Shown: piece after piece, positions 1 through 24,112 of the stretch
Position numbering within the stretch: the first letter of the stretch is position 1
Layout: every line of letters starts with the position of its first letter
Assembly (NCBI GenBank): GCA_963774265.1
Contig: CAVZDU010000003.1
Location: forward strand, 384,001-448,000
DNA length: 64,000 nucleotides
Direction: 5' to 3'
From: an uncultured Chloroflexia bacterium
GTDB lineage: Bacteria; Chloroflexota; Anaerolineae; CG2-30-64-16
Program-made: the position numbers and the translations under genes
Notes under the pieces: generated by a model
Databases searched by the model: none
What the model was told of the DNA's origin: nothing
The model's input: only the letters and a program-made list of their open reading frames with translations

Positions 1-896
1 GTCTTAAAGGGGGAGGTGGAGGTCGTCGGACAGGGCAAGGTGGTCAGAGTCCAGGCTGGTGAGGGCACATATGTCCTTAAGGATAAACCTCCGTTTCCGC
101 CGATTTGTGCGCATTTGGGGGACGTGAATGGATGGCTGGACAAACAACTGGGCACAGGATCGATCAAAGCCTTGGGTGAGCTTGTCGCAGGATGGAAGCA
201 GGAATCCTGTGCTGCCGCAACTGCAGCGGCGCCGGTTGCGGTGTACACCAGCCAGCCTCAGGCCCTTCCTTTGTCCGAGGGCATGATCAAGGTTGAAGCT
301 GGCGCCTATACGGTCGGCAGCACGCATCGGACGAGTTTCATATTCCTCCAATACAGAAGAAGCTGCCGACCTTCTGGATCGACATTCACGAAGTGACAAA
401 TGCGCAATATGAAGCGTTCTCAACCAGACCGGCCATCCGAAACCCGCTTCTTGGCCGGCAGGATAATCACCCGGTCAAGGGTGTCACCTGGGACGATGCG
501 GTTGCCTATTGCGCTTGGGCCAACAAGCGCTTGCCGTCTGAGGCCGAATGGGAAGTGGCCGCCCGGGGACCCAGCGCGGATCCGCCGTTGTATCCCTGGG
601 GTAGCGATCCGGAGGACGGTGGGAAGGTTGACTATCTCCCCCGCACCGAAACCTATGAAGTCGGCAGCGTTGCCTTTAACATGAGCCCCTTCGGTGTCTA
701 TGACATGGCCGGCAATGTCTGGGAGTGGGTGGGTGACCCATACTACCCCGTATCGGAAGGCATGAAGATCGTGCGAGGCGGCCGCTACGGGCGGATCAGG
801 GATATGGCTTACCGCCAGCAAGCAGAACCCAAGAGCGGACGTTTCGTCCCCTATGCCGGTTTTCGCTGTGCGGCCGATCAGGTGGAAGGAGAGTGA
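1..896 (+). CDS. Formylglycine-generating-enzyme (FGE-sulfatase/SUMF1) domain protein; 5' end probably outside window; frameshifted
   Basis: ORFs 16..396 and 393..896. Motifs VTNAQY, HPVKGVTWDDAVAYCAW, RLPSEAEWEVAARG, YPWG, DMAGNVWEW, GFRCA. Confidence 0.85.
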
Positions 897-2585: not shown

Positions 2586-4631
2586 CTGAGTTCGCCGACC
2601 TGGAGATTGGGCTGCACCGTCGAGATGCCAGCGTCTACGTCATCGAGTTTCGTTTCAGCCAGCCCAACAGCGAAGCCGATGTGCGTCTTGATCAGGGCCA
2701 ATCGGCTCAGGCGGCTTTTGACCTCGGCTGAACTCATCAGCCTGGTCTACGACCCTGCGGCTTACGGACAAAACCTGACACAGTCCTTCTTCGCGGAGCC
2801 CGCCGTCCAGACCGCGTTCGTGCAGGCGCGTGCCAGCGCCCAATCGCTTGGCGCGCCTCTGCGCGTCCGGCTGCTGATCGGCGCCAGTGCCGGCGAGCTG
2901 CAGGCTCTGCATTGGGAGTTGCTGGCTGATCCGCAAGGGAACAGCCCGCTCTCTACCAGCGAGAACCTGCTTTTTTCTCGCTATCTGAGCAGCCTGGATT
3001 GGCGCCCCGTTCGACTGCGCGCCAAAGGTGAGCTGCGGGCTCTCGTCGTGGTTGCGAACCCATCCAACCTCTCCGACTATGGCCTGACGCCGATCGACGT
3101 GGCCGGGGAGCTGGTCCGGGCACGCGATGGGCTCGGCGAGATTCCCATCACCCCCTTGCCCGACTCGGATGGCGTCCGGCGGGCCACTTTGAACAATCTG
3201 GTCGCGCTGCTGCGCGAGACCGAGTACGATATTCTCTACCTGGTGTGCCACGGCGCCCTGGTCAAGTCGGAACCCTGGCTTTGGCTGGAAGACGATCAGG
3301 GTAAAGTGGCGCGCGCTTCGGGCGTCGAATTGGTTACTCGTCTTGGCGAATTGACGACGCGTCCTCGCTTGCTCGTGCTGGCCTCTTGCGAGAGCGCGGG
3401 CGACGGCTCCGGAGATGCGCTTGCTGCCCTCGGACCTCGATTCGCCGAGGCCGGCATCCCGGCGGTGCTGGCGATGCAGGGCAAGATCAGCGTGCAGACG
3501 TTGTCGCAGTTCATGCCGGTGTTTTTCCATGAGCTGCAACGTGACGGTCAGATCGACCGGGCAGTGGCGGTGGCGCGGGGCGCGGTTCGCCAGCGGCCCG
3601 ATCATTGGATGCCGGCTTTGTTCATGCGCCTCAAAAGCGGGCGCATCTGGTATGTTCCCGGTTTCGCCGACGAGCAGGAAGACTTTGAAAAATGGTCCAG
3701 CCTGTCCGGTTTCGTCCACGACCGGACCTGTACGCCGATCCTGGGACCCGGGCTAATCGACAGTATCATCGGCTCCCGGCGCGACATCGCGGTTCGCTGG
3801 GCCGAGCGACACGGCTTCCCCCTGGCCAGCCAGGACAGGGACAATCTCCAGCAGGTGGCCCAGTATCTTCTGACCCGTCAATCGCCGGCCTATGTGCCGG
3901 TTATCTATCGAGAGGCACTGCGCGAGGCAGTGCTGTGCCGCTTTAGCGCCGCACTACCCGCAGAGCTGCAGCAGGTCGCCACCTGGTCAACTCCTCAGTT
4001 GCAGCAGGCGCTCGGGTTGGTGTCTGACCGTTATTCGATGGACAACCCATCCGAGCCTTATGACTTGCTGGCGCGGTTGCGCTTGCCGATTTACGTCACC
4101 ACCTCGACACTCGATTTCATGACCCAGGCCCTGGTCGGGGCCGGCGCTGAGCCGGTCGTGCGGATCTGCCCATGGAACAAGTGGATCCCAAAGGAAAAGG
4201 CCATCTACGAAGACGAACCCACTCCGGAAAGGCCGCTGGTATATCATCTGTTCGGCCACTTGAGCGTGCCGAGCTCGCTCGTGCTCGCCGAGGACACGTT
4301 CTTCGATTATCTGATCGGAGTGACACAGAACAAGAGCCTGATCCCCAGCGCAGTGCGGGCAGCCCTAAGCAACACCTCCCTCTTGTTTCTCGGCTTCCAG
4401 ATGGACGACTGGGAGTTCCGGGTCTTTTTCCGTTTTCTCATAGGGCAGGAAGGGAAGGAAATGCTCAAGCTGTACAGCCATGCTGCGGCGCAGATCGAGC
4501 CGGAAGAGACCCGCATCCTGGATCTCAAGCGCGCCCGCAAGTACCTGGAAGAGTACTTCGAAAGCGAGCACATCGCTATCTACTGGGGCAGCACCGAGGA
4601 ATTCCTGAAAGCGCTATGGCAACATCTGTAG
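2582..4631 (+). CDS. CHAT (caspase-HetF) protease fused to C-terminal SIR2-like domain
   Basis: ATG 2582 (MTEFADLEIGLHRR) overlaps the upstream stop and joins ORF 2607..4631 by a frameshift near 2725. CHAT: LHWELL, LYLVCHG, VLASCES, VLAMQ. SIR2-like: PILGPGL, IYVTTS, VYHLFG, LLFLGF. Confidence 0.85.
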
Positions 4632-7600
4632 GTGAGCCCAATCCATATATCGGCCCGCGCGCCTTCCAATTGGGCGAGCGCATCTATGGCCGGGAGCACG
4701 AAGCCAGCCAGTTGGTCAACCTGATCATCGCTGAACGGGTCGTGCTGCTTCATTCCCCTTCCGGCGCGGGCAAGACCTCCCTGATCCAGGCCGCCCTGAT
4801 CCCAAGATTGCTGAAGAGCAGGTTCCAGGTGTTGCCTGTGGTGCGCGTCAATCTGGCTTCGCCGATTCGAAGGACCGGGACCCTGAATCCAACCGCTATG
4901 TCTACAGCGCTCTGCTGTCTCTGGAAGAAGGGCTGTCCCCCGGCCAGCAAGTTGGGTCAGCCGATCTGGCCCGGATGAGTCTCTCGGACTATCTGGCACA
5001 GCGGCCAGGCCGGAAGGCGCACTCGACATCCAGGTGCTCATCTTCGACCAGTTCGAGGAAATCCTCACCCTGGATCCCACGGACCTGGCTGCCAAGCAGG
5101 AGTTTTTCAGGCAGCTGGGCGATGCGCTGGCCGCGCCCAAGCGCTGGGCGCTGTTTTCCATGCGCGAGGATCATGTTGCGGCCCTCGATCCGTACAAGCT
5201 GCCTATCCCGAGCCTCTTGGCGAACACATTCCGACTCGACCTGCTGGGCCTGGAGGCGGCTCGCCAGGCGATCCAGCGACCGGCCCTGCAAGCCGGGGTC
5301 GAGTTCGAGGACGCGGCGGTTGAAAAACTGGTGGATGATCTGCGCCGGGTGCGCGTGCAGCAGCCGGATGGTTCGGTGGCGCCACAGCTGGGCCCACACG
5401 TCGAGCCGGTGCAGCTCCAAGTGGTTTGCCATCGACTGTGGGAAACCCCGCGTCCCGCCATGGGACGGATCACCGAGCAGGACCTCGCGGCGTTCGGGCA
5501 GGTGGACCAATCGTTGGTCGACCAGTCCCTGGCAGAGTACTATGCCGAGCGGGTGGCGGCTGTCGCGGCCGAAACCGGGACAAGCGAGCGCAGCATCCGG
5601 GAATGGTTCAATCGCCGGCTGATCACCGAGCAGGGCGTGCGCGGCACGGTGCTGATGGGAAAGGAACGAAGCGGCAGCTTGGACAACCGTGCTATCCGGT
5701 CCTGGTCGATGCCTATCTGGTGCGAGGCGAGAAACGCGGCGGGGCCACCTGGTTCGAGCTGTCCCACGATCGACTGATCGGACCGGTTCGCGGTGGATAA
5801 TGCTGCATGGTTCAAGGCCAACCTGAGCCTGGTCCAGCAGCGCGCCGACGTGTGGGAACAACAGGACCGGCCAGAGAGCCTGCTGCTGCGCGGGCAGGAG
5901 CTAGCGCAGGCCAGGTTGTGGGCGGAGGACCATCAGGCGGAGTTGCTGCCCTCCGAGGTGGATTACCTGGCCGGCAGCCAGGAGCAGGCTATCCGTGCCT
6001 TACGCCTGAGGCGACGCAACCAGGTCATTTTGGTGCTGGGAATAGCGTCGATGCTGCTTGCCTTCGTGGCTTCGCTAGCCTTCAGGACGGCAGCCCGTGA
6101 GCGGGACTTGGCCCGACGCCAGGAACGGCTGGCGCGTGCGGGCCAGTTGGCGGCGCAGTCGCAGGCCGCCCTGCAAGCGTTTCCGCCTCGCAGCATGTTA
6201 TTGGCCGTCGAGGCCCTGAGCGTTACGCTCAAGGCCGGTGAGCCGCGCCTGGCGAATGCCGAAAATGCTCTGCGCGGTGCTCTCAGCGATCCCCATGGGA
6301 TACCCTTGCCCGGTCACACGGGTGAAATCAAGGCCCTGGCCTTCAGCCCGGAGTGCGGCGGCTCACTCAGTGCGCCCGGCGGAGCTGTCCCTGGGACAGC
6401 GGCGCGGTGTGGACACTGGTTGGCCACCGGCAGCGATGACAATACCGTCCGGTTGTGGTCCATCGACGCCACGGATGGGGCCGCGAGTCCACTCATCCTG
6501 TCAGGCCACGAGAACCGCGTCACCGCCCTGGCCTTCAGCCCGGAGGGCCGTTGGCTGGCCTCAGGGAGCGCGGATCAGACCCTCCGGCTCTGGGACCTGC
6601 CGCGCCGCGGATCCCGCTGCGAATCCCCTGGTTCTGAACAGCCAGGGTGGTGACGTGTATGCATTGGCCTTCAGCCCGGAGGGCCGTTGGTTGGCCGCCG
6701 GCGGCCTCGACGGAAGGGTGCAGTTGTGGGACATGGCCGCGCCTGTAGCGGGAGCCACGCCGGTCATCCTATCCGGCCACCAGGGCTCGATCCTCATACT
6801 CGCCTTCAGCCCTGGCGGTCACTGGCTGGCAGCAGGCAGCGATGACAGGACCGTCCGGCTCTGGGACATGACCGCCGGGAATGTCGATGCGTCCCTGAGA
6901 GTTCTGCGCGGGCATGAGGGCGTGATCACCAGCCTGGCCTTCAGCGCAGACGGACGGTGGCTGGCCACCGGCAGTCGAGACAAGACGGCCAGGCTGTGGG
7001 ACCTGGCCGCGGCCGATCCGGAGGCTCAGCCGCGCGTTTTGCGCGGGCACAGCGATTGGGTCAACGCCCTCGCATTCAGCCCGGAGTGCGACCGCCTGCG
7101 CGAAGGGTCAGCGGATTCGTGTGTGCAATGGCTCGCGACCGGGAGCGGCGACAAAACCGTCATGCTGTGGGACCTGAGTGCTCCGGAGGCGGTCGCCTCT
7201 CCACGGGTTCTCACGGGTCACGAGGGGGCTATCAACACCCTCGCCTTCAGCCCCGAGGGTCGTTGGTTGGCGACCGGCAGTACGGACAAGACTGCTCGAC
7301 TGTGGGACCTGCGTGCGGGAGACCCCGGCCCGGCCCCAGTTGTTTTGCGCGGACATGAAGATTGGGTCAATACCCTCGCCTTCAGTCCGTGGTGCTACAA
7401 CCCGCCTGGGGCCTCCGGCGAAGCAGTCCTGGGGACAGGGGACGGGTGCCCGCGTCTGTTGGCCACCGGCAGCAAGGACATGACCACGCGGTTGTGGGTC
7501 GTGGGCGCCGTCGACCCGACCGCGGATCCCATCGTTTTGAACAGTCACAAGGACCAGGTCAACACCCTGGCATTTGACCCGGACGGACGTTGGCTGGCGA

Positions 7601-8874
7601 CCGGTGGGGGCGATCCGGCCGGATCGCCGGGCGGCGACAATACCGACAATGCCGTTCGGCTGTGGGATGTGGGAGCCGCTGGCCCGGCCGCGGCTCCCAT
7701 CCTCCTGAGCGGCCATGATAAGTGGATCAGCACGCTCGCCTTTAGCCCGAGGTGCGGCGCCCCATTCGGAGGGTCAGCGGCGCGGTGTGTGCAATGGCTT
7801 GCAACCGGCAGCGGAGACAGTACCGTCAGGTTGTGGGACCTAAGCGCCGGGGATGGTGTCGCCTCGCCCCGCGTCCTGACCGGCCATGCAGGGCCTATCA
7901 CTGCTCTCGCCTTCAGCCCACAGTGCGCCAACTCAACCGGAGCGACAAGCGTGCCAGCCCAGGGGTCAGCGGAGCAGTGCGCCCGCTGGCTGGCGACCGG
8001 CAGCCAGGACAAGACCGCGCGGCTCTGGAACCTGTCAGCCGCGGGCCCGGTCGGAGACGCACGCGTCTTGGCTGGCCACGAATCGATCGTCAGGGCGTTG
8101 GCGATCAGCCCGGATGGACGCTGGCTGGCCACCAACAGCGACTACACCACTTATTTGTGGGACCTCACCGCGCTGGGCGCGGATCCAATCAGGCCGGCGC
8201 ACACCCTGCACGAACACAGCGATTTCGTCACCAGTCTCGCCTTCAGTCCCGACAGCCGCTGGCTGGCCACCGGAGGTGGGAGCAGCGACAAGACGATCCG
8301 GGTATGGGACATGCGCGCTGCCAACCCCGCGGCCAATCCCAAAATCCTAACCGGTCCCCAGGCTGAGGTTAGCGTGCTGGCCTTCAGCCCGGGGTGCCCT
8401 GGCTCATCCCAAGCGCCGGCGGGGGGGTGCGGGCGCTGGCTGGCCGCTGGCAGCAAGGATAAGATAGTCCTGGTGTGGCCTGTTGGCGAGGACGGTCCGG
8501 GCGGGGAGCCGCTCGTCCTGCGCGGCCACTCGGGGTCGATCACCGCCCTGGCCTTTAGCACAGACGGCAATTGGCTTGCCACCGGCAGCGATGATGAGAC
8601 GGCCAGGCTGTGGGATCTGCATTCCCCGAACACTTCGGCCCAGTCTGCCGTGTTAGGGGGCCACGCGGCAGGGGTCCTCACCCTGGCTTTTGACCCGGAG
8701 GGCCGCTGGCTGGCCACAGGCAGCCAGGACCACACCGTTCGATTGTGGTCCTTGTCCCTGGACAACCTGATCAGCCTGGCCTGTTCTGGTGCGGGGCGGA
8801 ATCTCACCCAGGAGGAATGGGTGGAGTTCTTCCCCGGCGAGACCTACCGCAAGACCTGCACCCAGTGGCCCTGA
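4616..8874 (+). CDS. nSTAND1-type NTPase, transmembrane helix and 16 WD40 repeats (NLR-like receptor); several frameshifts
   Basis: NPYIGPRAF..GRE, Walker A SPSGAGKTS, Walker B LIFDQFEE, LQVVC..LW, ELSHDRL, TM VILVLGIASMLLAFVASLAF, 16 GH..AFSP..WLAT..LWD repeats, C-terminal C..AGRNLTQEEW..C cap. Confidence 0.9.
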
Positions 8875-8900: not shown

Positions 8901-10334
8901 TCAGGCGCGGTTCTCCACGTTCTGCCCTGTCGATAGGCGCACGGCCGGATCACCGATAATGGCGTAGCCGCGCGCATCATTGTTGGCCATCCACATGTGG
9001 GCCAACTCGTAGGGGTCGACCTTCAACCCCGCTTCGATCTCTTCCAGCTCATCGGTCAGCACCGTCGACAGCTCGGCCCAGCGTTGATTGAAGTATTCGA
9101 GCGCTGAGCCGATGGGGTGGCCGTCGAGCAGGCGCTGGAGCGTACTCTCGAAGACGGTTGTCTGCGCTCCCGCATCCGGCCAATCGAAGGAAAAGGACCA
9201 GGCGCGTTCGATGTGGCCGACCACTGCGAGCGCGCCGCCGCGGGGGTGGGATAGCATTTTCTTCGGCAGCTCCGCGGTAAAGGAGAATGGCGCGATGGGC
9301 CTCGGCTGCGCGAAGGCCTGTTTCGAATACTCGTCCACCCTGGGCGTGCCCGCCCCATAACATGCGAAGAAGAAGGCCACCATGCCCAGAAGGTTGGCGC
9401 TTTCAGCCAGGTCTTCGCCGGCAAAATAGTGGTCGCGTGAGATCGGCCGCCTGCCCCAGGCCTCTGGCCCAGGCCAATCCTGGCAAAGCAGAGCGCCCTG
9501 GTGCTGCATCTGACGCGGGTCGTCGAACGGAAACTCCATCCCGTGGCTCCCGGTCATGAGCAGGGCGGGCGCTTCGGGTCCCCCCAGAAGTGCCTGTAGT
9601 CGCGCCTTGGTCGCGCCATCCCGCAGGACCGACCGGATGTCCCAACCGGAACTCTTCGCACTGAAGGCCTTGTAGAGAGGTTCGATGAGGTTGCCGGTGG
9701 AGAGCGTCGTTGCACGGTCGCCGGGGTTGGCGACTCCGAAAAATGTGGCGGTGCGGGGCGGCGTGGTGTCAAGTTTTTCCGCGGCGACCACGCTGCCCGC
9801 ATAGCTGGCATACTCCTGTAATGTGTCAAAATCGAGACGGCCGACGGCATGTTGGACATCCAGCTCGTATTGAAACCGATAGGGGATCTCTTCAGGATGA
9901 CCGACAATCAAGAGGTAATAGGGAACCTTGTCAGGGTCGACCGGTCCCGGGCCAGCCCCGTAACGGCCGAGAAACCTCGATTTGGTGTCCGCGCCGCGGC
10001 GATAACCCTCCGCGCCGCTGAAGAGGCGAAAGTGGGGGCCGGCTTGCGTTTTGCGGAGCGCGAGGAGGTCTGTCAACGCCTCCTCGATGGCCGGGTCGGC
10101 GTCATCCGCGAAGATGATCCCCCAACCGGCCTCATCCAGCTTCTTGGGGTCGATCCCTTCCTTGAGGCCACGGTTCTCTTCGCTTTCGGTCAAGTGATAG
10201 CGAAGCTCCTTTGAATTCTCAGGTGTCCCAAGGCGCAGGATGACCGCCGCAAGTTCTTCGCCCGTCATGGGCGGTATTCCGTAGTCGCCGGTGGCGCCAT
10301 TGACGCCATTGAAGACGAGCTGCTTCTCGGACAT
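8901..10334 (-). CDS. Clan CD cysteine peptidase (C25/gingipain-caspase-like fold), no signal peptide
   Basis: Intact 477-aa ORF with PYYLLIVG, VGRL, His motif LMTGSHG, Cys motif FFACYG and terminal IIGDPA. Confidence 0.75.
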   Translation of the reverse strand: MSEKQLVFNGVNGATGDYGIPPMTGEELAAVILRLGTPENSKELRYHLTESEENRGLKEGIDPKKLDEAGWGIIFADDADPAIEEALTDLLALRKTQAGPHFRLFSGAEGYRRGADTKSRFLGRYGAGPGPVDPDKVPYYLLIVGHPEEIPYRFQYELDVQHAVGRLDFDTLQEYASYAGSVVAAEKLDTTPPRTATFFGVANPGDRATTLSTGNLIEPLYKAFSAKSSGWDIRSVLRDGATKARLQALLGGPEAPALLMTGSHGMEFPFDDPRQMQHQGALLCQDWPGPEAWGRRPISRDHYFAGEDLAESANLLGMVAFFFACYGAGTPRVDEYSKQAFAQPRPIAPFSFTAELPKKMLSHPRGGALAVVGHIERAWSFSFDWPDAGAQTTVFESTLQRLLDGHPIGSALEYFNQRWAELSTVLTDELEEIEAGLKVDPYELAHMWMANNDARGYAIIGDPAVRLSTGQNVENRA

Positions 10335-10499: not shown

Positions 10500-10546
10500 G
10501 CCGCGTAGGTAGGGGCAGCCGCAGGTGCTGCCCCTACCTACGCGGC
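10500..10546. repeat. Perfect 20-bp-stem GTAG-containing palindrome (REP-like or terminator) over the metY stop codon
   Basis: GCCGCGTAGGTAGGGGCAGC, 7-nt loop, GCTGCCCCTACCTACGCGGC. Confidence 0.75.
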
Positions 10547-11834
10547 GCTGGCCTCCAGCGCCTGATCCAGGTCCCACAGGATGTCGTCGATATCCTCGAG
10601 GCCGACGCTCAGGCGGATGAAGTCGGGCGTGACGCCGGCCGTCGCCAGCTCGTCCTCGCTGAGCTGGCTGTGCGTGGTGCGTGGCCGGATGGATGGCCAG
10701 GCTCTTGGCGTCGCCGACGTTGGCCAGGTGGCTGAAGAGCTTGCAGGCTCTCGATGAACCTGCTGGCCGGCCGCCACGCCGCCCTTGATGCCGAAGCCCA
10801 GGATCGCGCCCGGCGCCCTTGGGCAGATACTTCTTGGCCCGCTCGTGATCGGGATGGCTGGCCAGGCCCGGGATAGCTGACCCAGCTCACCCGCGGATGC
10901 GCCGTCCAGGAACTCGGCCACCGCCTGGGCGTTGGCCACGTGGCGATCCATGCGCAGGCTGAGGGTCTCGATGCCCTGGATGGTCTGCCAGCTATTGAAC
11001 GGCGCCTGGCAGGCGCCGATGTCGCGCAGGATCTGCACGCGCGCCTTGAGGATGAACGCCGGCGCGCCCAGGTCGGCGTAGACCAGCCCGTGGTACGATG
11101 GGTCGGGCGTGGTGAAGTTGGCGAAGCGGCCGCTGGTCCAGTCGAAGTTGCCGCCGTCGACGATCACGCCGCCGATGGTGGTGCCGTGGCCGCCGAGGAA
11201 CTTGGTGGTGCTGTGGACGACGATGTTGGCGCCCCACTCGAACGGCCGGCACAGGTAGGGCGTGGCGAAGGTGTTGTCGATCATGAGCGGGATGCGCGTG
11301 CTGCCTGGCCAGCGCCGCCACCTCCTCGAACGGGAAGACGCTGATGTCGGGATTGCCCAGCGTCTCGCCGTAGAGGATCTTGGTGTTGGGCCGGATCGCC
11401 TTCTCGAAGTCGCCCGGGTCGGTCGGATCGACGAAGGTCACGTCGATGCCGATGCGCGGGAAGGTGTAGGCGAACTGGTTGTAGGTGCCGCCGTAGAGCC
11501 GGCTGCTGGTGACGATGTGGTCGCCCGCGCCGCACAGGGTGAGGATCGCCATGGGCCTGCGCGGCGTGGCCGCTGACTGGCCGCCAGCGCGCCGACGCCG
11601 CCTTCCAGGTCTGGCCAGGCGCTGCTCGAGCACGTCGGTGGTCGGGTTCATGATGCGGGTGTAGATGTTGCCGAACTCCTTCAGGGCGAACAGATTGGCG
11701 GCGTGCTCGGTGTCGCGGAACTGGTAGCTGGTGGTCTGGTAGATCGGCACGGCGCGGCTGCCGGTGGTCGGGTCGGGCTGCTGGCCGGCGTGCAGTTGGC
11801 GGGTGGTGAAGCCGAGCTTGCGTTCGGTGATCAT
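10538..11834 (-). CDS. metY: O-acetylhomoserine aminocarboxypropyltransferase/sulfhydrylase; frameshifted
   Basis: PIYQTTSY, GNIYTRIMNPT, DNTFATPYL, HSTTKFLGGHG (PLP Lys), IRLSVGLE. Confidence 0.92.
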
Positions 11835-11900
11835 GGCTTGTTCCTCTCTTCATTCGGATGCGGCCTCCGCCGGCCGGGACTGTTGTTCACGCATCGCAAC

Positions 11901-17146: not shown

Positions 17147-18127
17147 GGCGCACCCCTTTGGGAGAACATCTCAGATACGGCAGCGGCAGCCTGCCTGCGA
17201 TCGGCCAGCTCGGCCGCGGTGATTTCCCCGCGCCGAGCGGCCGCCTGCGCCCTGCGCTGCTCCGCAGCCATGCCGAGCCGCACGATCCGCGCGGCCAGAC
17301 GTTGTCGCGACGGGCTATAGAATCTACGGTACAACCGCTGCCGGCTGCGCCAGAGGTTGAGCGTGGACTGGCTGCGAAATTGCCGGGTGCTGGCGCCGCC
17401 GTGATGAATCACCCGGGCACGCGGCACACAGAAGAACGACCAGCCCGCGCGTTGCATGCGCCAACACCAGTCGACTTCTTCCGCGTACATGAAATAGCCT
17501 TCGTCCAGCAGCCCGGCGGCCTCGATCGCCTCGCGGCGCACCATCAGGCTGGCGCCCAGGGCAAAGTCGATGGGGAAGGGTTGGCCCGTGTCATAGAGTG
17601 ATCGGGAATACCGGCCATTGAGTTGGGTGTCGAGCAGCCGGCGGGGTCGCGGTGGGAACAGGTCGAACCAGAGTTGGAGCAGCCCGGGAAACGCGAAATG
17701 CGCCGTGCTGGAACCTGCCGTCGGGGTATTGGAGCTGCGCACCAACGCCGCCCGCCTGGGGATGCGCCAGCAGGTGCGCCGCCATCTGCCCGATCGCGTC
17801 GGCCAGCGGCTCCGCGTCCGGGTTGAGCAGCAACACGAGGTCCGGCCGCGGCCCATCCCCGTCGCCGAACCCACATGCGCGTAGTGCGAGGTTGTTCCCC
17901 CCGGCAAAGCCAGGGTTGTCCTGCCGTGCGATCAGGGTCGCCTGGGGGAACTCGGCTGCAACCAGCTCCGCGCTGCCGTCACCCGATGCGTTATCGACGA
18001 CCCACACCGCCGCATCCAGCTCGGGACTGCGCGCCAGGCTCGCGTAGGTCGCAGCCAGGCACGCCCGGAGGAGGTCCCGCACTTTATAGCTGACGAGGAT
18101 GATCGCCAGGGTGGTTCGCCGCGTCAT
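17143..18127 (-). CDS. Glycosyltransferase family 2 (WbbL-like); frameshifted
   Basis: VVDNASGDGS, GFAGGNN, LLLNPD, YFMYAEEVDWC. Confidence 0.85.
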
Positions 18128-19443
18128 GGAACTCCGACGTTGACGCTGATCCGATCCACCGAGTCGTTGGCCACCTGGACGAACTCGTGAATCAGCCCGC
18201 CCCACCAAAACTGGGTGCCCACGGGCGGCACGGCATCCATCTCGATGCATCCGTGTACCTGTCCGCGTTTGCCCGGCAGCAGGTAGTACTGCGGCTCACC
18301 GTCGATGATGCGTTCCTCCAGGTCCTCTTTGCGCCCGATGGACCATCGGAACGGGAAATCCACACCGGTCGAATCGAAGTTCACGCCAAATCGCCACGAG
18401 CCAGCCTGCTGAAGCCATGACTCCTCGTCCTCGCGCACGGCCAGGGTGTTGTAGTTCTCACTGAATTTGTACGTCTGCCCTGCCCACGGCCCTGCCGTCC
18501 TGATCGGCACGGGTCCGTCGTTTTCGACGGTTGCGGTGAAACAGAACGAGTGTCCCAGGAGGACGCTCACGTCGCGGCTGACCTCGTCCGACCAGTCTAT
18601 CTCGCCGCCGAGGATGTTCGCGCGCGGTTTGCCACCCTCGCGGATGGTCAGGGTCGACGAGACCACGACGCGGTTCCCGACTTTGTCTGCCGCCTCAGCG
18701 AAGATGGCATAGTCGCCATCCGGCGGCGGCTCCGCGGACTGGTCCACGCCGCCATCGTAGTCGTAGCCGTGATAGCCCGCCATGCCGGTCTCGGAGATCG
18801 AGGCTGTGGGATTTTCAGCGATGGGATAGTGCAGGAGGGAGGGGCCCTTGTCAGTCTCCAGGGGCTGCAAGTACACCTCGATGCGCTCGGCATCCTTCAG
18901 CAGAAAATAGGAGATCGAGACGCGGTCGTGAATGCCGTCCTGGTTGGGCGTGAACTCCTGGGGCACGACGACGAAGTTGTGGAGTTCCGGCAGAGTCGTG
19001 TCGCCGTCCGACAGCGTGATCCGCCCTTCCCGCTTGTACGTCTGCCCGGAGAGATCCACGGCCTCGATCACCCAGGTGTATTCCCCATCGGGCAGGACGT
19101 GGCTGGACACGAGCATGGCGCCGCCCTCAACCTGTCGCACTTCGGGATCGACGGTCACGCCGCTCCAGTAGACCTGGTATTCCCCGCGCGAGCGTCGCTC
19201 GCCATTTCGGAAATAGTAGCGGACACCTTGGGCATCGATCACGTAAATCGACACGTGGGCCGTGCGTCCAACCGTATAGCGCATCAGGGTCACATCGTCC
19301 TGACCGTCTGCGTTGGGCGAGATCGCCTCGGGCTGCACGCTTACACCAGACAGCAACGGGCTCAACTCACACGCACTGAGCCCGAATGCGGCCGCAACCA
19401 GGATCAGGACCAGGGGAAACCATTGACGGGTGGAAACCCGCAT
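18124..19443 (-). CDS. Lipoprotein with FlgD-like Ig domains
   Basis: Lipobox LSAC; ISPNADG/FTPNQDG and PDGEY/PDGDY repeats. Confidence 0.7.
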   Translation of the reverse strand: MRVSTRQWFPLVLILVAAAFGLSACELSPLLSGVSVQPEAISPNADGQDDVTLMRYTVGRTAHVSIYVIDAQGVRYYFRNGERRSRGEYQVYWSGVTVDPEVRQVEGGAMLVSSHVLPDGEYTWVIEAVDLSGQTYKREGRITLSDGDTTLPELHNFVVVPQEFTPNQDGIHDRVSISYFLLKDAERIEVYLQPLETDKGPSLLHYPIAENPTASISETGMAGYHGYDYDGGVDQSAEPPPDGDYAIFAEAADKVGNRVVVSSTLTIREGGKPRANILGGEIDWSDEVSRDVSVLLGHSFCFTATVENDGPVPIRTAGPWAGQTYKFSENYNTLAVREDEESWLQQAGSWRFGVNFDSTGVDFPFRWSIGRKEDLEERIIDGEPQYYLLPGKRGQVHGCIEMDAVPPVGTQFWWGGLIHEFVQVANDSVDRISVNVGVP

Positions 19444-19499: not shown

Positions 19500-21560
19500 T
19501 CAAAAGCGCAGCGGCCCCAGCCGGATGCGTTTCCCGGCGGGGTTGTCGGCCACATCGCGAATATCCAGTCCTTCAGGCGCGCCGGGCGCATAGACGGCCA
19601 GCGAGACATAGAGGTCGCCGTTGGCCCCCGCAGGCGCCGGCAGCGGGTACCGGCCAAACACTGCCTTGTCCACGGACCAGCGAGTGGTCGGGTAGCCGTA
19701 GCCCGCAGGCCGGCCATCCCATCGTCCCAGGATGGCGCCCGCGGCATCCTCCAGGATCAACGACACCTGGTAGTCCTCGGTCAGCGTGTTCAGCGCGCGC
19801 CAGTAGACGGTCAGCTCGCCATCCTCCGGATCGTCCCACCCGAGCAGGGCCAGCTTGTGGTCGAAGTTCGCCGCATCCGCGTGCTGCGGCTCGGGCGAAG
19901 CCACATACCGGGCATCGGCCCGCAGGGTCCAATGCCGCAGGCCCAGGTGCCAGAACCGGGCAACGGGATTTGTTTCGACGCCGGCACGGTCGAGGAAATA
20001 GGGGACGAACCCCACCGGATCGACGACCTCATCCTGCCACGTCACCAGCCACGCGCCGTTCCCGCCCCTCAGGCCCTGTTCGAGCGCCGGCGCGTCCTCG
20101 AACCCGAGCACCGCATTCACGTCCAGGATGTCGATCTGGGGCAGCCGGATCGGCGCGATGTCTGCGGCGTAGACCTCCCACGCGGGCGCGGCATGGCCTG
20201 ACACCAGCACCACCCGTTCGCCTGGCCCTATTTGGCCTCGCACGTAAGCCGCCAGCTCGCGCCACTGCGCCTTGGTGAACGCCGGATCGCTGAACCAGTT
20301 GCGCAGGCCGATCACCGACGTGGCCAGCACCAGCGTGGCGATCGCGGCGGCCCCCGCGCGGCCCGCAAGCGTGCGGGCCTCCGAACCGCGAGCCGCCAGC
20401 CGGCCGCGGCCGGGCGCGGTCCACAATCCTGCCATCCCGCCGGCCAGGATAAGGAAGTACGCGGGCGACGCCAGCATCAGGTAACGCGGGTTGAACTTCG
20501 GATTCCTCGCTGCCAGCGCCAACACCATCGCCAACGGCAGCAGCAGGGCCACCAGGGGAACCCAGGCCTCCTGCCACCCGGCCTTCCCTCGGCGGCGTGC
20601 GCCTGCCCAGAGCCCTGCGAGTGCGACCGCCATTGCGACGGCAAACCAGGGCAACCATCGCTCGGCGTCGCTTTCCAGCATCGTTTCGGGCGCACCCGTG
20701 GTGAAGCTGACGAAGACATGCCGCAGCGCCTCGCCCAGCTTGAGATCACCCTGCCAGTACGACGCGTCAACCCGGTACCGATTCAGCATGGCCGGCAACC
20801 ACGGCAGATAGCCCAGGACGACCAGCGCGGCGGCGACGATGGCTTCACGAACCCGAGGTCCTGAATGCCGACCGTGTGCTGCTGCCAGGGCGACGATCGC
20901 ACAGGCGGCGTAAGCCGCGAGCAAGAAGAGCGCAAAGTAGTGCGTGTACAGGGCGGCCAGGGACGCCACGACAGCCGTTCCCCACCACATGGAGACGCGC
21001 CGGCCCCCTGCCGCGGCCTCCGCCGCGGAGACGGCGCGGAGCAGTGCATAGCCCGCCAACGCGCCGAAGAAGGTCAGCTGCGTGTACATGCGGGCTTCCT
21101 GCGCATAGTAAACGTAAAGCGGTGCGATCGCGGTCATGCCTGCGGCAAGCATCGCTGCCAGGAGACCGCGGCGTCGGCGGCCGAACAGTCTGCGCGCCAG
21201 GCTCCACAGGAGCGCTATAGTCGCGGTTCCAAACAGCGCGGAGGGAAACCTGAGCGCCCATTCGCCGTGCCCCGCGGCGCGCGTCCACCCTGCCAGGAGA
21301 TAGTAGTAGAGCGGCGGCTGGATATCGTCTGCGGTCCACCGCGTCAGCTCGGCCAGCCCTTTCGCGGCCACCTGCGCGCTGACCGCCTCGTCATACCACA
21401 GGCTCTGGCTGTCGAGCCGCACGACGCGCAGGGCCAGGGCCAGCAGCAGGATGGCCAACAGCAGCACGCCGTTCAACCCACGGGAACGGCCCACCGTGGA
21501 CTGCACGTGCGACCCCTCCCGCCCCGGGACGGGATCGTCAACACCTGGGCGAGGTCTCAT
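19500..21560 (-). CDS. GT39/PMT-like membrane glycosyltransferase; start uncertain
   Basis: QSLWYDEA, DIQPPLYY, YYAQEARMY, many TM helices, C-terminal Ig-like domain. Confidence 0.85.
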   Translation of the reverse strand: MRPRPGVDDPVPGREGSHVQSTVGRSRGLNGVLLLAILLLALALRVVRLDSQSLWYDEAVSAQVAAKGLAELTRWTADDIQPPLYYYLLAGWTRAAGHGEWALRFPSALFGTATIALLWSLARRLFGRRRRGLLAAMLAAGMTAIAPLYVYYAQEARMYTQLTFFGALAGYALLRAVSAAEAAAGGRRVSMWWGTAVVASLAALYTHYFALFLLAAYAACAIVALAAAHGRHSGPRVREAIVAAALVVLGYLPWLPAMLNRYRVDASYWQGDLKLGEALRHVFVSFTTGAPETMLESDAERWLPWFAVAMAVALAGLWAGARRRGKAGWQEAWVPLVALLLPLAMVLALAARNPKFNPRYLMLASPAYFLILAGGMAGLWTAPGRGRLAARGSEARTLAGRAGAAAIATLVLATSVIGLRNWFSDPAFTKAQWRELAAYVRGQIGPGERVVLVSGHAAPAWEVYAADIAPIRLPQIDILDVNAVLGFEDAPALEQGLRGGNGAWLVTWQDEVVDPVGFVPYFLDRAGVETNPVARFWHLGLRHWTLRADARYVASPEPQHADAANFDHKLALLGWDDPEDGELTVYWRALNTLTEDYQVSLILEDAAGAILGRWDGRPAGYGYPTTRWSVDKAVFGRYPLPAPAGANGDLYVSLAVYAPGAPEGLDIRDVADNPAGKRIRLGPLRF

Positions 21561-21565
21561 CGCCC

Positions 21566-24112
21566 CTACTCCATCGACGTGCAACATGCCTCCGCAGCCA
21601 AACAGCACGCATCCGGCCGGGGTCCGGCCATCGGATCGATCGTCACTGGTCCCAGGACGGCTTCTTCCCCTGCTGAGTTCCCCAGGCCCGACACGTGCGA
21701 GAGACGCTCTCCATTTCGCCCGTCGATCCACCCGACCACCAGCTCATAGCGCCCGGGTTGGACGTCCCCGGGCACGGCGATCGTATGGGCGTCGATAACG
21801 CCCGCTGCGCCATCGCTGCCCACCTGCCAGGTCGTCGCAGGACGCGGGGTGAACCAGGTTGGCTCCCCTTCGACCGCGGCGACGATTTTGCCAGTGACAT
21901 CAGCCAGGTGGAGGAACACGCTGTACGCCTGCGGCGCGGCGCCTGCAGCCTGCCAGTACAAGAGGATCGGGAGCTCGCCACCGGGCGCTGCGCTCATCGG
22001 CGCGCTCCACTCGGCAAGCCTCACCGTCCAGTCCGCCCCCGCGAAGGCCGCGCCGGACGTCTCGATGGAGGTCAACGGTCCTTCGTATAGCCGAAGCCTG
22101 CCTTCGCGGCGCGCGAAGCCGGGGAGCCGCAGCGTCCCGTCGCCCGCGACCTCCGCGGGGGTTGCGCTAGCGGCCGCATCAGGCCCCGACAGCTCAGGGC
22201 GTATGACCTGCCCCCCATCAGTGACCTGCAACGCCGGCGCGAACGCGCGCGGCAGGAACCACGGCGCCGTTTCCGTCACGACGACCTCGCCCGCCCCCCA
22301 CTGTCCTGGATCGCGCCAGAGCAGCGCGGGCAGGGGGCGCTGTTCGCTGCTATCCACCACCGCACCCGCCGGGGTCCTGGCCTCGTACCTGATCGCCAGG
22401 TTGGGGGGCAGTGTGGCGCCTGCCACCTGCCAGTAAAAGCGGAAACGGGTGAGCCGCGAGCGCACATCGTCGAGGACATCGAAGCCGAGCAGGCGCAGCC
22501 CGGGCCCGATTTGCGCGCCGACCGGAATCTCCGGCCGCTGCTCGCCCGCACGGGTAAACGAGTAAAAATCGTCGGGCAGCGCCCGGGCCGCTGCACCCCG
22601 GGCCAGCAACAGATAACCGTCCGCAGCGTCCACGACCCCGTAGCCTCCATCTTCGATCAGCCGGTCAACCGACGATTTGACGTCCCCAGGGGGCATGCCG
22701 GTGAACCCTGCGACGTCGATTAGCAGGTGGGTGGCATCGGACACGTCAGGGTAGACATAAATCTTATGCCGGTGGCTGAGGTGGGGATGCACGGCAGGCG
22801 TCGCGGAGACGGTCGCGCTGGGGGGAATCTGGCCGGTCAGCCGCGCCAGGGTGCGGTGGTGATCTGTCAGGGCCGGCCACTGGTACGGCCGCGCCAGGGG
22901 CGTCCATCCGCGCTCGATCTGCGCACTCCCAGCCCAGGCCAGCAGCCAGATCGCGCCGAGCACGCTGATGACGGTCGCGTTGGTGGCCAGCGGTGTCAGC
23001 CGGAAGGGCGCCTGGCGCTCGATGAATCGCTGCAGCCGCCGCGCACCGTATATCGACGCGATGATGAACACGGGCGCCAGGGGTGCGGCCAGCTCCCACA
23101 GCTCCCCGGCCGGTCCGGTCGGGGTCGTCAACGCGTGGGTGACGAGGAACGGCAGCCCCAGCAGCAGGATTTCGGGCGCGAGCAGCGCCAGCCAGCCGAC
23201 CGAACGGAGCAAGCCGCCCAGGGCGTCCAGCCAGGCTGGCTCCCGCAGGGCGGCCAGGTCTGCCAGCCTGCCCCAGGACCACGCGTTCTGTGCTGCGCCG
23301 CCGGCGGCTTGGCGCGCGGCCGGCGCCACGATGAGGAACGACACCGCGGCGCACCACCCGATGCTGACCAGCAGCAAGGCGAGCCCCTGCTTCGTGCGCT
23401 CGGGCCGGCGTTCGCTGAGGATCAGCAGCAGCCCCAGCATGGCGGTCAGCAGGGCATAATCCTCCCTTGCCGCCATGACCACCAGGGCCCAGCCCCACAT
23501 CGGTCGCCAACGCCCCTCGGTGCCGTACCAGAAAGCGAAGAGCAGCGGCGCGACCACCCACGTTGCGGTGTGGAATCCCGCGACGTTCGCCGCCTGTATC
23601 GCTGGCATGAGCAGGTAGGCCAGGGCAAAGGCCAACGCCAGCCACTCTGCGCGCCGGCGGTCGCCCGCACCTGGGGCGCCCCTGACGCCGGAGAATGTGG
23701 TCGGCGCATCCATGCGCGGCGCATAGGCGCGCCGCGCGATCCAGAACACGGGCAGCGCGCCGGCGGCCAGCGCCAGGGATTGGATGATCAGCATCGCGGC
23801 CACGTCGTCCCACAGGACATAGACGAGTGACAGCGGCAGGAGGATCAGCTCGAGGTGTCCGGTGGTGCGCGAGACCTGCTGCGTCCCAACGGTGCGTTCG
23901 AGGAACCGCCCGTGCACGGTGTTCCACATGGCCTGGTCGATGGAGGACAGGCCGCTCGCGGTGGTGTTCAGTGTGGCGTGTCGTTGCAGGGTGTAGACGC
24001 TGAAGAAGGACGCGTAGGCGACGATCAGCACCCAAAGAAGGGCGGTTGGCGCGAGGGAACGTCCTTCGACTACGCCGCTCCCGCGGCTCCGCTCACCGTG
24101 CGCTGCGTCCAA
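21566..24112 (-). CDS. DUF2079-type GT-C membrane protein with C-terminal Ig-like domains; start uncertain
   Basis: DQAMWNT..GR, HLELIL, FH, REDY motifs and multiple TM helices. Confidence 0.7.
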   Translation of the reverse strand: MDAAHGERSRGSGVVEGRSLAPTALLWVLIVAYASFFSVYTLQRHATLNTTASGLSSIDQAMWNTVHGRFLERTVGTQQVSRTTGHLELILLPLSLVYVLWDDVAAMLIIQSLALAAGALPVFWIARRAYAPRMDAPTTFSGVRGAPGAGDRRRAEWLALAFALAYLLMPAIQAANVAGFHTATWVVAPLLFAFWYGTEGRWRPMWGWALVVMAAREDYALLTAMLGLLLILSERRPERTKQGLALLLVSIGWCAAVSFLIVAPAARQAAGGAAQNAWSWGRLADLAALREPAWLDALGGLLRSVGWLALLAPEILLLGLPFLVTHALTTPTGPAGELWELAAPLAPVFIIASIYGARRLQRFIERQAPFRLTPLATNATVISVLGAIWLLAWAGSAQIERGWTPLARPYQWPALTDHHRTLARLTGQIPPSATVSATPAVHPHLSHRHKIYVYPDVSDATHLLIDVAGFTGMPPGDVKSSVDRLIEDGGYGVVDAADGYLLLARGAAARALPDDFYSFTRAGEQRPEIPVGAQIGPGLRLLGFDVLDDVRSRLTRFRFYWQVAGATLPPNLAIRYEARTPAGAVVDSSEQRPLPALLWRDPGQWGAGEVVVTETAPWFLPRAFAPALQVTDGGQVIRPELSGPDAAASATPAEVAGDGTLRLPGFARREGRLRLYEGPLTSIETSGAAFAGADWTVRLAEWSAPMSAAPGGELPILLYWQAAGAAPQAYSVFLHLADVTGKIVAAVEGEPTWFTPRPATTWQVGSDGAAGVIDAHTIAVPGDVQPGRYELVVGWIDGRNGERLSHVSGLGNSAGEEAVLGPVTIDPMAGPRPDACCLAAEACCTSME

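What the first reader, a model, noticed from the sequence alone, without database searches (positions are those of the whole stretch)
6354..8430. Six Cys-stapled variable loops in the WD40 sensor, alternating C-x17-C and C-x10-C
Seen: blades 1, 6, 8, 10, 11 and 14 of 16 carry an insert at the same position (between AFSP-x and xx-W/L-LA), each bounded by two Cys: C-GGSLSAPGGAVPGTAAR-C, C-DRLREGSADS-C, C-YNPPGASGEAVLGTGDG-C, C-GAPFGGSAAR-C, C-ANSTGATSVPAQGSAEQ-C and C-PGSSQAPAGG-C. The lengths run 17, 10, 17, 10, 17, 10. The loop sequences diverge strongly while the blade scaffold is conserved. The propeller follows a TM helix, so disulfides are plausible. Inference: modular, CDR-like recognition or interaction loops that could be shuffled between blades. 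I do not know of a description of this feature.
Basis: partly seen in the sequence, partly recalled or inferred. Interest (0 to 1): 0.8.

Follow-up and report, generated by a model that had tools for sequence, protein, structure and literature searches.

The report
Cysteine-clamped loops in a membrane WD40 sensor
A bacterial membrane-spanning alarm protein carries six extra surface loops, each closed by a pair of cysteines, on its propeller-shaped sensor; they are real and rare, but look like a copied structural add-on rather than antibody-like recognition loops.

Summary
The gene at 4616-8874 encodes an nSTAND1 NTPase, one hydrophobic helix and 16 WD40 blades. Blades 1, 6, 8, 10, 11 and 14 carry C-x17-C or C-x10-C inserts at the tip of the A-B hairpin. 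The reading frame is broken five times, most likely by assembly indels.

- **Relatives:** two metagenomic orthologues (P0121, P0020) keep Cys-flanked loops at the same blades, with lengths of 10, 17 or 24 only. The 17/10 alternation is not conserved. Colinear sister orthologues have no loops.
- **Divergence:** loop interiors are about 30% identical against about 75% for the scaffold. They are A/G/S/P-rich, fold with low confidence and share a motif, so they are copies of one insert.
- **Second lineage:** P0361 has nine nearly identical C-DSPPEAxAER-C loops. This argues against a generally CDR-like role.
- **Location:** helix conservation, charge bias, all-paired cysteines, VKOR and DsbA-like genes, and a relative with a PPC domain favour an extracytoplasmic propeller with disulfides. 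None of this proves it.
- **Rarity:** 3 of 360 listed homologues and 0 of 150 library representatives carry such loops.

Verdict: a real new variant of a known sensor type, function unknown, moderate interest.

The parts
2607..4631 (+). Upstream gene for a CHAT (caspase-like peptidase) plus SIR2_2 protein, the likely effector partner. Its end overlaps the start of the sensor gene by 16 nt.
   Evidence: Pfam CHAT 102.7 bits and SIR2_2 63.4 bits. ORF coordinates.
4616..8874 (+). Sensor gene: nSTAND1 NTPase, one TM-like helix, helical stalk, 16 WD40 blades and a Cys-pair tail. The frame is broken at about 4879, 5004, 5700, 5790 and 6600.
   Evidence: Three-frame translation. tblastn of orthologue P0121 runs colinearly through frames 2, 1, 3 and 1. 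Pfam nSTAND1 42.8 and 58.1 bits on the two pieces.
6024..6080 (+). Hydrophobic helix VILVLGIASMLLAFVASLA, a predicted single membrane span.
   Evidence: Mean Kyte-Doolittle 2.66 over 19 aa; flank net charge +4 (N side) against +2 (C side). A comparable helix is found in 180 of 240 homologues, with mean flank charge +3.7 against +0.8.
6303..8760 (+). 16 WD40 blades, probably two 8-bladed propellers.
   Evidence: Blade list. AlphaFold model of blades 9-16: pLDDT 85.9, pTM 0.86, eight A-strands plus an N-terminal closing strand. The best Foldseek TM-scores are to 8-bladed propellers such as Tako8 (TMt 0.88-0.89) and ODA16.
6354..6410 (+). Blade 1 loop, C-GGSLSAPGGAVPGTAAR-C (x17).
   Evidence: The orthologue P0121 has x24 here.
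7087..7122 (+). Blade 6 loop, C-DRLREGSADS-C (x10).
   Evidence: P0121 has x10 (DRPPEKTTEQ).
7393..7449 (+). Blade 8 loop, C-YNPPGASGEAVLGTGDG-C (x17).
   Evidence: P0121 has x17.
7753..7788 (+). Blade 10 loop, C-GAPFGGSAAR-C (x10).
   Evidence: P0121 and P0020 have x17 here. Model pLDDT is 71-74.
7924..7980 (+). Blade 11 loop, C-ANSTGATSVPAQGSAEQ-C (x17).
   Evidence: P0121 has x24 and P0020 x17. Model pLDDT is 50-56, and residues 152-158 are below 50.
8395..8430 (+). Blade 14 loop, C-PGSSQAPAGG-C (x10).
   Evidence: All three orthologues have x10. Model pLDDT is about 62.
8755..8871 (+). C-terminal helical tail, LAC..AGRNLT..EW..FFP...Y.KTC.QWP, with a conserved Cys pair (codons 8782-8784 and 8857-8859).
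   Evidence: In alignment A1 (35 sequences) the second Cys is invariant and the first is at least 90% conserved. The model shows helices at 420-431 and 437-443.
8901..10334 (-). Downstream convergent gene with a weak Peptidase_C25-like match. Whether it belongs to the system is uncertain.
   Evidence: Pfam PF01364 24.7 bits against a cut-off of 23. No hit at E<=1e-5 on the longer frame.

Best explanation
The six inserts are copies of one small loop cassette, Cys-x10-Cys, lengthened in 7-residue steps to x17 and x24. The cassette is spliced exactly into the tip of the A-B beta-hairpin of a WD40 blade, between the D/E and the G of the canonical 'SP[DE]G[RH]W' turn.

The protein is a membrane-spanning STAND (NLR-like) sensor. 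The nSTAND1 NTPase is in the cytoplasm, where it would act with the co-transcribed CHAT-SIR2 effector. One helix crosses the membrane, and two 8-bladed WD40 propellers lie outside the cytoplasm. There the two cysteines of each cassette form a disulfide. The disulfide re-closes the opened hairpin, so the blade tolerates an exposed, flexible, A/G/S/P-rich acidic loop on the bottom face of the propeller.

The cassette arose once and was copied between blades by recombination through the highly conserved flanks (AFSP... / ...WLATGS). In one lineage (P0361) it is kept as a near-identical motif, DSPPEAxAER, on nine blades. In the window's lineage only the cysteines and the loop lengths are kept, while the interiors have drifted.

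I therefore read the loops as a repeated bottom-face decoration: a contact or spacing surface towards the envelope, a cation or a common partner. I do not read them as the variable ligand-recognition site.

**Shown:** position, Cys conservation, length classes, homology between loops, rarity, and low model confidence.
**Inferred:** disulfides, outside location, copying mechanism, and role.
For: - **Anatomy:** each insert lies between SP-x and x-x-W of an otherwise canonical blade. In the model, strands A and B keep their canonical register around the loops. The two Cys therefore stand where sequence neighbours stood, an adjacency enforced by chain topology (inference).
- **Selection on Cys:** 16 of 16 loops in the window protein, P0121 and P0020 are Cys-flanked. 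Interior identity is 26/81 and 11/37 positions against scaffold identity of 577/774 and 314/416. In P0361 nine further loops are Cys-flanked, and all 20 Cys after its helix are paired.
- **Length classes:** all 16 loops are 10, 17 or 24 residues long, and orthologous changes are always +/-7.
- **Common origin:** a shared 17-mer consensus (G5 in 9/10, G13 in 8/10, A6, S7 and A10 in 7/10) and a shared 3' DNA block.
- **Outside location:**
  - a strongly hydrophobic helix (KD 2.66) with a more positive N flank, seen in 180 of 240 homologues;
  - Cys after the helix are even in number in 117 of 180, with a mode of 2;
  - the tail Cys pair is conserved;
  - the genome encodes VKOR (87.6 bits) and four DsbA-like Thioredoxin_4 stretches (81.7-101.7 bits);
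  - relative P0192 carries a PPC domain, typical of secreted proteins, after the propellers (32.4 bits against a cut-off of 25.9).
- **Not a recognition site:** 61% A/G/S/P composition, pLDDT of 50-74, and near-identical loops in P0361 (85% against 38% for flanks, 6 of 9 loops measured).
Against: - No experiment and no coordinates: the Cys-Cys distance was not measured, and disulfides are only inferred.
- The parity bias (117 even, 63 odd) is modest, and the 180 proteins are related, so it overstates support.
- The charge bias at the window's own helix is small (+4 against +2).
- The PPC evidence comes from one distant relative.
- The gene is frameshifted five times here. If these breaks are real, this copy is a pseudogene and its loops may be decaying.
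- The strict 10/17/24 length classes and the residual motif show some constraint on the interiors that a mere decoration does not explain.
- I have no DNA for the orthologues, so neither dN/dS nor conversion tracts could be tested.
- The loop homogeneity in P0361 could reflect recent gene conversion rather than selection.
Confidence: 0.5

Rival explanations
1. The loops are CDR-like recognition loops. They are disulfide-stapled, hypervariable and under diversifying selection, and they form or extend the ligand-binding surface. They are shuffled between blades to create new specificities.
For: Interiors diverge far faster than the scaffold between orthologues, about 30% against about 75%. Presence (blade 3) and length (blades 1, 10, 11) differ between orthologues. 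The host protein is a sensor of a conflict-type STAND system next to CHAT-SIR2, a class in which sensor diversification is known (passages of PMC10907252; PMC8195603).
Against: The loops are on the bottom-face A-B turn. Their composition is A/G/S/P-rich with almost no Y, W or F, and they model as low-confidence coil. They share a conserved motif. P0361 has nine near-identical loops. No template repeat or second copy of any loop exists in the genome. No dN/dS could be computed.
Confidence: 0.12
2. The loops are a tolerated, essentially functionless low-complexity insertion. A GC-rich in-frame insertion at the hairpin tip survived because a Cys pair (or simply the turn geometry) keeps the blade folded. 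It spread by repeat recombination and is now drifting.
For: Composition typical of disordered linkers in a genome of about 63% GC. Low pLDDT. Colinear sister orthologues P0002, P0132 and P0127 function without any loop. Shorter Cys-less G/S/T/P inserts occur at the same site in other family members such as P0028, P0031, P0164 and P0131. The feature is rare.
Against: There are no small indels: only lengths of 10, 17 and 24 are seen in 16 loops despite about 70% interior divergence. Every Cys is conserved. Loops persist at six of seven blades across orthologues about 25% diverged. The loop sequence is strongly conserved in P0361, above its flanks.
Confidence: 0.25
3. The propellers are cytoplasmic or membrane-associated. 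The Cys pairs act as metal ligands or as a redox-sensitive switch rather than as structural disulfides.
For: Characterised STAND sensors such as Avs and Apaf-1 are cytoplasmic (recalled). Necks of loops on neighbouring blades (10 and 11; 8 and 1) could lie close enough to share a metal (inference). The charge bias at the window's helix is weak.
Against: A single strongly hydrophobic helix must put the NTPase and the propellers on opposite sides, and the NTPase needs cytoplasmic ATP (inference). Isolated loops (blades 6 and 14) have only two Cys and no conserved His or Asp partner. A PPC domain follows the propellers in P0192. All Cys after the helix are paired within loops.
Confidence: 0.1

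Closest known systems
nSTAND1 NTPase conflict-system sensors with C-terminal repeat arrays (Kaur et al. 2021, eLife, PMC8195603; passages read)
   Same: The NTPase family is the same: PF20703 scores 42.8 and 58.1 bits on the two frame pieces, and 325 bits in relative P0361. The protein has a C-terminal WD40 array and a neighbouring caspase-like/SIR2 effector gene.
   Different: The passages I read do not mention a membrane helix between the NTPase and WD40, nor Cys-flanked blade inserts. Here the helix is present in 180 of 240 homologues, and the loops occur in only a few.
Fungal HNWD/HET-E type NLRs with WD40 repeats under concerted evolution and diversifying selection (PMC1805685, PMC2873952; seen only in a search listing and abstract starts; details recalled)
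   Same: Both are WD40 sensor arrays of STAND proteins in which sequence is exchanged between repeats.
   Different: There, variation sits at a few positions of highly similar repeats, on the top face as I recall. Here a whole 12-26-residue Cys-bounded cassette sits in the bottom-face A-B turn of otherwise ordinary blades that are only 38-58% identical to one another.
DGR-diversified C-type-lectin sensors on nSTAND1/NACHT proteins (Dore et al. 2024, PNAS, PMC10907252; passages read)
   Same: Both show variable sensor segments on STAND conflict proteins of multicellular-type bacteria. Some of those sensors are predicted to be periplasmic.
   Different: The fold is different (CLec/FGE), and the mechanism there uses a template repeat and a reverse transcriptase. 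No second copy of any loop was found in this genome.
Ca2+-binding hairpin loops on the lower face of the integrin alpha-subunit beta-propeller (recalled; not tested against any call)
   Same: Both are extracellular beta-propellers with functional loops in the hairpin between the first two strands of several blades, on the bottom face.
   Different: The repeat family is different (FG-GAP) and the motif is DxDxDGxxD without Cys. The loops here lack that motif (one search list).
Disulfide-bounded variable D-region of type IV pilins (recalled)
   Same: Both are surface loops closed by two Cys whose interior varies while the Cys are kept.
   Different: The fold is unrelated, and each pilin carries a single loop. 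Antigenic variation is documented there and not here.

Membership tests
WD40 repeat beta-propeller (PF00400) | Repeated units of about 40-45 residues matching the WD40 profile | tested here: met
   438.4 bits with 13 stretches on 6601-8871, and 79.5 bits on 5793-6602. 16 blades listed.
WD40 repeat beta-propeller (PF00400) | Closed propeller fold of four-stranded blades | tested here: met
   AlphaFold model of blades 9-16: pLDDT 85.9, pTM 0.86, eight blades. Foldseek E 1e-23 to 1e-26 to WD40 propellers, with the best TM-scores to 8-bladed ones. This is a prediction, not a solved structure.
nSTAND1 NTPase (PF20703) | Match to the family profile above the curated cut-off, including the P-loop | tested here: met
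   42.8 bits (profile 1-71, contains GAGKTS) and 58.1 bits (profile 118-264) against a cut-off of 27.1. Colinear with P0121 and P0002.
nSTAND1 NTPase (PF20703) | One intact open reading frame | tested here: not met
   Five frame changes in the window. They are probably assembly errors. Contigs of relatives in run X1 differ by +/-1 at 5003, 5701 and 6600, and a Cys/Met-metabolism gene at 10541-11849 is split in the same way.
Extracytoplasmic disulfide-bonded domain | Domain lies outside the cytoplasmic membrane | tested here: inconclusive
   Indirect evidence only: helix hydrophobicity and charge bias, and a PPC domain after the propellers in P0192. No topology predictor or experiment was available.
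Extracytoplasmic disulfide-bonded domain | Cys occur in pairs that are spatially adjacent and oxidised | not testable with these tools
   Pairing in sequence is shown: 14 of 14 Cys in the window protein and 20 of 20 in P0361. Adjacency is inferred from hairpin topology.
Extracytoplasmic disulfide-bonded domain | Organism has a disulfide-forming system | tested here: met
   VKOR at 87.6 bits, over its cut-off. Four Thioredoxin_4 (DsbA-like) stretches over their cut-off.
DGR variable region | A near-identical template repeat elsewhere in the genome | tested here: not met
   blastn of the six loops against the whole genome found only self hits and chance matches of 18-19 nt with E>=0.1.
Hypervariable (CDR-like) recognition loops | Sequence diversity concentrated in the loops, with no conserved loop motif, across family members | tested here: inconclusive
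   Met within the window lineage (30-32% against about 75%). Contradicted in P0361 (85% loop against 38% flank identity) and by the shared 17-mer consensus. dN/dS was not computable.

The most novel reading that the evidence does not exclude
These proteins would be transmembrane NLR-like receptors whose extracellular WD40 propellers carry a mobile, disulfide-stapled loop cassette. The cassette is copied between blades through the conserved flanks and resized in 7-residue quanta. In the window's lineage it is diversifying into a second, bottom-face recognition surface. This would be a bacterial counterpart of the variable loops of immune receptors, generated by repeat recombination rather than by a retroelement.
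Probability: 0.12. Interest if true: 0.75.

Novelty: new variant of a known kind. Interest (0 to 1): 0.4.

Why it matters
Characterised bacterial STAND/NLR-like sensors, as far as I recall, detect their triggers inside the cell. In this family every cysteine after a conserved membrane helix is paired. If these pairs are disulfides, the WD40 sensor of this nSTAND1 family lies outside the cytoplasm. The proteins would then be receptor-like and would signal across the membrane to a CHAT/SIR2 or TIR effector.

That idea can be tested directly with this protein by topology fusions and disulfide mapping.

The loop cassette is also a clean natural example of how a beta-propeller blade tolerates and propagates an insertion. 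The strict 10/17/24 length classes remain unexplained.

I found no description of the loops in four text searches or in the passages I read. These searches cover open-access papers and preprints only.

Tried and rejected
- **Own genome:** a six-frame regex for the motif gave 43 loose hits, of which only the six in this gene have the FSP...WLA context.
- **Forty relatives:** of 19 best WD40 loci from other genomes, none has a WD40-type Cys insert. One regex hit in L010 is not in a WD40 context.
- **Genome contigs peptide-pattern scan:** 16 loci, all at most 36% identical, so no close relative.
- **Metagenome contigs DNA-pattern scan:** this used a strict codon pattern. Its single hit, L042, encodes no WD40, so it is a false positive.
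- **Pattern for C-DSPPEAxAER-C** with up to 1 mismatch in 401 genomes of the phylum: 0 hits.
- **phmmer of P0260** against 1.84 billion representatives: none of the 139 new proteins among the best 150 has a Cys-bounded A-B insert. The other 11 were already held and loop-free.
- **Sequencing runs:** one soil run held 5% of the words and no RNA holder was listed. Laid at 80% likeness it gave short contigs of relatives only. A 'joint' from 7086 to 7795 is just a canonical loop-less blade of another gene. This was not usable for loop polymorphism.
- **DGR idea:** rejected, because no template copy exists.
- **Intein or mobile-element footprint:** considered and dropped. The inserts are 36-78 nt and in frame, and I saw no terminal repeats by eye.
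- **Model coordinates:** not available in the script box, so no Cys-Cys distance.
- **Literature:** Kaur 2020 and 2021, Hu 2017 and Dore 2024 were read only as 'find' passages. None mentioned the loops.
Full report
**What is there**

The finding lies in one long gene on the + strand (4616-8874). Three-frame translation shows the parts in order.
- An NTPase starts at MATSVGEPNPYIGPRAFQ. Pfam nSTAND1 scores 42.8 and 58.1 bits on two pieces against a cut-off of 27.1.
- A strongly hydrophobic helix follows at 6024-6080. Its mean Kyte-Doolittle value is 2.66.
- A helical stalk of about 75 residues comes next.
- Then come 16 WD40 blades. WD40 scores 438.4 bits with 13 stretches on blades 3-16.
- A C-terminal helical tail carries two conserved Cys.

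The upstream gene (2607-4631) encodes CHAT plus SIR2_2 and overlaps the sensor's start by 16 nt. A convergent gene downstream has a weak Peptidase_C25 match (24.7 bits). Further out are an FGE-sulfatase domain (297-893) and housekeeping genes.

**Broken frame**

The frame changes at about 4879, 5004, 5700, 5790 and 6600. The full-length orthologue P0121 aligns colinearly through all of these places.

Three lines of evidence point to assembly indels.
- A Cys/Met-metabolism gene at 10541-11849 is split in the same way, with Pfam positions 2-167 in one frame and 167-381 in another.
- Contigs of relatives in a soil run differ by one base at 5003, 5701 and 6600. Each difference rests on a single contig at depth 2-2.8, so this is weak evidence.
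- The genome has 10 contigs but only 84% completeness.

I therefore treat the breaks as assembly errors, but a pseudogene is not excluded. None of the breaks touches a loop.

**Check of the observation**

Blades 1, 6, 8, 10, 11 and 14 carry inserts of 17, 10, 17, 10, 17 and 10 residues, each between two Cys, at the stated coordinates.

At the DNA and protein level the insert sits exactly between the D/E and the G of the canonical turn SP[DE]G[RH]W. It replaces the tip of the A-B hairpin.

After the helix the protein has 14 Cys in 929 residues. Twelve flank the loops and two are in the tail.

**Relatives**

| Search | Result |
|---|---|
| Own genome, six-frame regex | No other gene has the motif |
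| 19 best WD40 loci from 40 related genomes | None has it |
| 360 homologues listed by three searches of the 5.8-billion-protein collection | Three have it: P0020, P0121, P0260 |
| Peptide-pattern scan of species genomes | No further case |
| Strict DNA-pattern scan of metagenomes | No further case |
| Motif pattern in 401 genomes of the phylum | No further case |
| Best 150 of 1.84 billion representatives | No further case |

The three loop-bearing homologues are these.
- P0020 is a 460-residue C-terminal fragment, 70% identical.
- P0121 is 1450 residues long and 67% identical.
- P0260 is 348 residues long and 42% identical. Its cluster holds the full-length P0361 of 1470 residues.

The feature is rare.

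**Comparison with orthologues**

P0002, P0132 and P0127 are colinear. They have the same helix, 16 blades and the same tail, but no loops. P0121 and P0020 have Cys-flanked loops at the same blades as the window.

| Blade | Window | P0121 | P0020 |
|---|---|---|---|
| 1 | 17 | 24 | not covered |
| 3 | none | 17 | not covered |
| 6 | 10 | 10 | not covered |
| 8 | 17 | 17 | not covered |
| 10 | 10 | 17 | 17 |
| 11 | 17 | 24 | 17 |
| 14 | 10 | 10 | 10 |

All 16 loops are 10, 17 or 24 residues long, and every orthologous difference is 7 residues.

Loop interiors are 26/81 (32%) and 11/37 (30%) identical to the window. The scaffold is 577/774 (74.5%) and 314/416 (75.5%) identical. Every flanking Cys is kept.

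**The loops are copies of one insert**

The ten 17-residue interiors include the first 17 residues of the two 24-mers. They share x-x-P-[SP]-G-A-S-x-E-A-x-x-G-T-x-E-R, with G5 in 9/10 and G13 in 8/10.

In the window's DNA, blades 1, 6, 10 and 11 share the block GGG WCA GCG NNN NNG TGY before the second Cys. No copy of any loop lies elsewhere in the genome, so a DGR-type template is excluded.

The flanks AFSP and WLATGS are the most conserved part of every blade. They would serve as homology arms for copying between blades. This is an inference.

Shorter G/S/T/P-rich inserts without Cys occur at the same site in other family members, such as P0028, P0031, P0038, P0039, P0164, P0030, P0131, P0051, P0196 and P0087. 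The A-B turn is therefore an insertion hot spot in this family.

**A second lineage changes the picture**

P0361 has nSTAND1 (325 bits), a helix (LRWLALGLTIVLVLAAAAAVVA) and about 15 blades. Its N-terminus looks TIR-like by eye, which I did not test.

It carries nine C-x10-C loops, nearly all reading DSPPEAxAER, plus the tail pair. All 20 Cys after the helix are paired.

Among six of the nine loops, interiors are 85% identical between blades while 36 flanking residues are 38% identical. In the window protein the figures are 17-27% and 55-58%.

The cassette is thus a conserved motif in one lineage and degenerate in the other. P0121's DRPPEKTTEQ and GAAHEAPAAG still resemble DSPPEAxAER. This argues against a generally CDR-like role.

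**Structure**

I modelled blades 9-16 plus the tail with a 35-sequence alignment. The model has pLDDT 85.9 and pTM 0.86. It shows eight blades closed by the N-terminal strand. The best TM-scores are to 8-bladed WD40 propellers.

The three loops are coil with pLDDT of 71-74, 50-56 and about 62. The A and B strands beside them keep the canonical register.

By textbook WD40 topology (recalled), A-B turns lie on the bottom face, opposite the usual binding face.

The two Cys occupy the positions of two sequence neighbours of the canonical turn.

**Inside or outside**

A single membrane span must separate the NTPase from the propellers. Several observations favour an outside location and disulfides.
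- A comparable helix is found in 180 of 240 homologues, with mean flank charges of +3.7 (N side) and +0.8 (C side).
- Cys after the helix are even in number in 117 of 180 (mode 2). These proteins are related, so this is weak evidence.
- The tail pair is conserved. One Cys is invariant and the other is at least 90% conserved in 35 sequences.
- The genome has VKOR and DsbA-like genes.
- One relative, P0192, carries a PPC domain after the propellers.

Together these favour, but do not prove, an extracytoplasmic location.

**Reading**

Most likely (0.5) the loops are disulfide-closed copies of one cassette that decorate the bottom face of extracytoplasmic propellers. Only the Cys and the lengths are constrained in this lineage.

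The rivals are:
- a tolerated, functionless insertion (0.25);
- CDR-like recognition loops (0.12);
- a cytoplasmic metal or redox site (0.10).

The strict 10/17/24 length classes are not explained by any of these readings.

**Literature**

Text searches and passages of PMC8195603, PMC7159879, PMC5587647 and PMC10907252 gave no description of such loops. They also gave no description of a helix between nSTAND1 and WD40. Only open-access papers and preprints were searched, and supplements were not opened.

Noticed in passing
window 4879, 5004, 5700, 5790, 6600; also 10541-11849 (-): There are five single-base frame breaks in the sensor gene and one in a Cys/Met-metabolism (PF01053) gene. Several lie next to CCGG-like contexts. 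This suggests systematic indel errors in the assembly rather than pseudogenes.
   Followed up: partly
window 8755-8871: The C-terminal tail LAC..AGRNLT..EW..FFP...Y.KTC.QWP, with a Cys pair, is conserved across 35 aligned family members. The second Cys is invariant. It forms two short helices in the model. Its role is unknown; it may be a further disulfide.
   Followed up: partly
window 6024-6080, and homologues P0001-P0240: A single hydrophobic helix between the nSTAND1 NTPase and the WD40 array is present in 180 of 240 listed homologues. This implies a receptor-like, membrane-spanning STAND architecture. I did not find it described in the passages I read.
   Followed up: partly
P0361 (1470 aa; cluster of P0260): This protein has a TIR-like N-terminus (by eye, not tested), nSTAND1, a helix and WD40 blades. 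Nine blades carry the almost identical loop C-DSPPEAxAER-C, which is far more conserved than the blades around it.
   Followed up: partly
window loops, and P0121 and P0020 loops: All 16 loops are 10, 17 or 24 residues long. Orthologous loops differ only by 7 residues (21 nt), and blades 1 and 11 change together (17/17 in the window, 24/24 in P0121). This is unexplained.
   Followed up: partly
window 7567-7734 (blade 9): Blade 9 has a separate B-C insertion (GGGDPAGSPGGDNTDNA). Its core, DP...DNTDN, is conserved in both the loop-bearing and the loop-less orthologues.
   Followed up: no
window 297-893 (+): An FGE-sulfatase (C-type-lectin-like) domain ORF scoring 135.6 bits lies about 1.7 kb upstream of the CHAT-SIR2 gene. 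Such domains are sensors in other nSTAND1 conflict systems (PMC10907252 passages). Two ORFs with no Pfam family lie between them (904-1536, 1556-2086).
   Followed up: no
P0192 (1553 aa): This family member extends past the Cys-pair tail with three TPR-like repeats of about 50 residues and a PPC domain (32.4 bits).
   Followed up: partly
window 19503-21743 (-) and 17594-18295 (-): PMT_2 family and family-2 glycosyltransferase genes lie about 10 kb downstream. A link to the S/T/P/A-rich loops, for example by O-glycosylation, is pure speculation.
   Followed up: no
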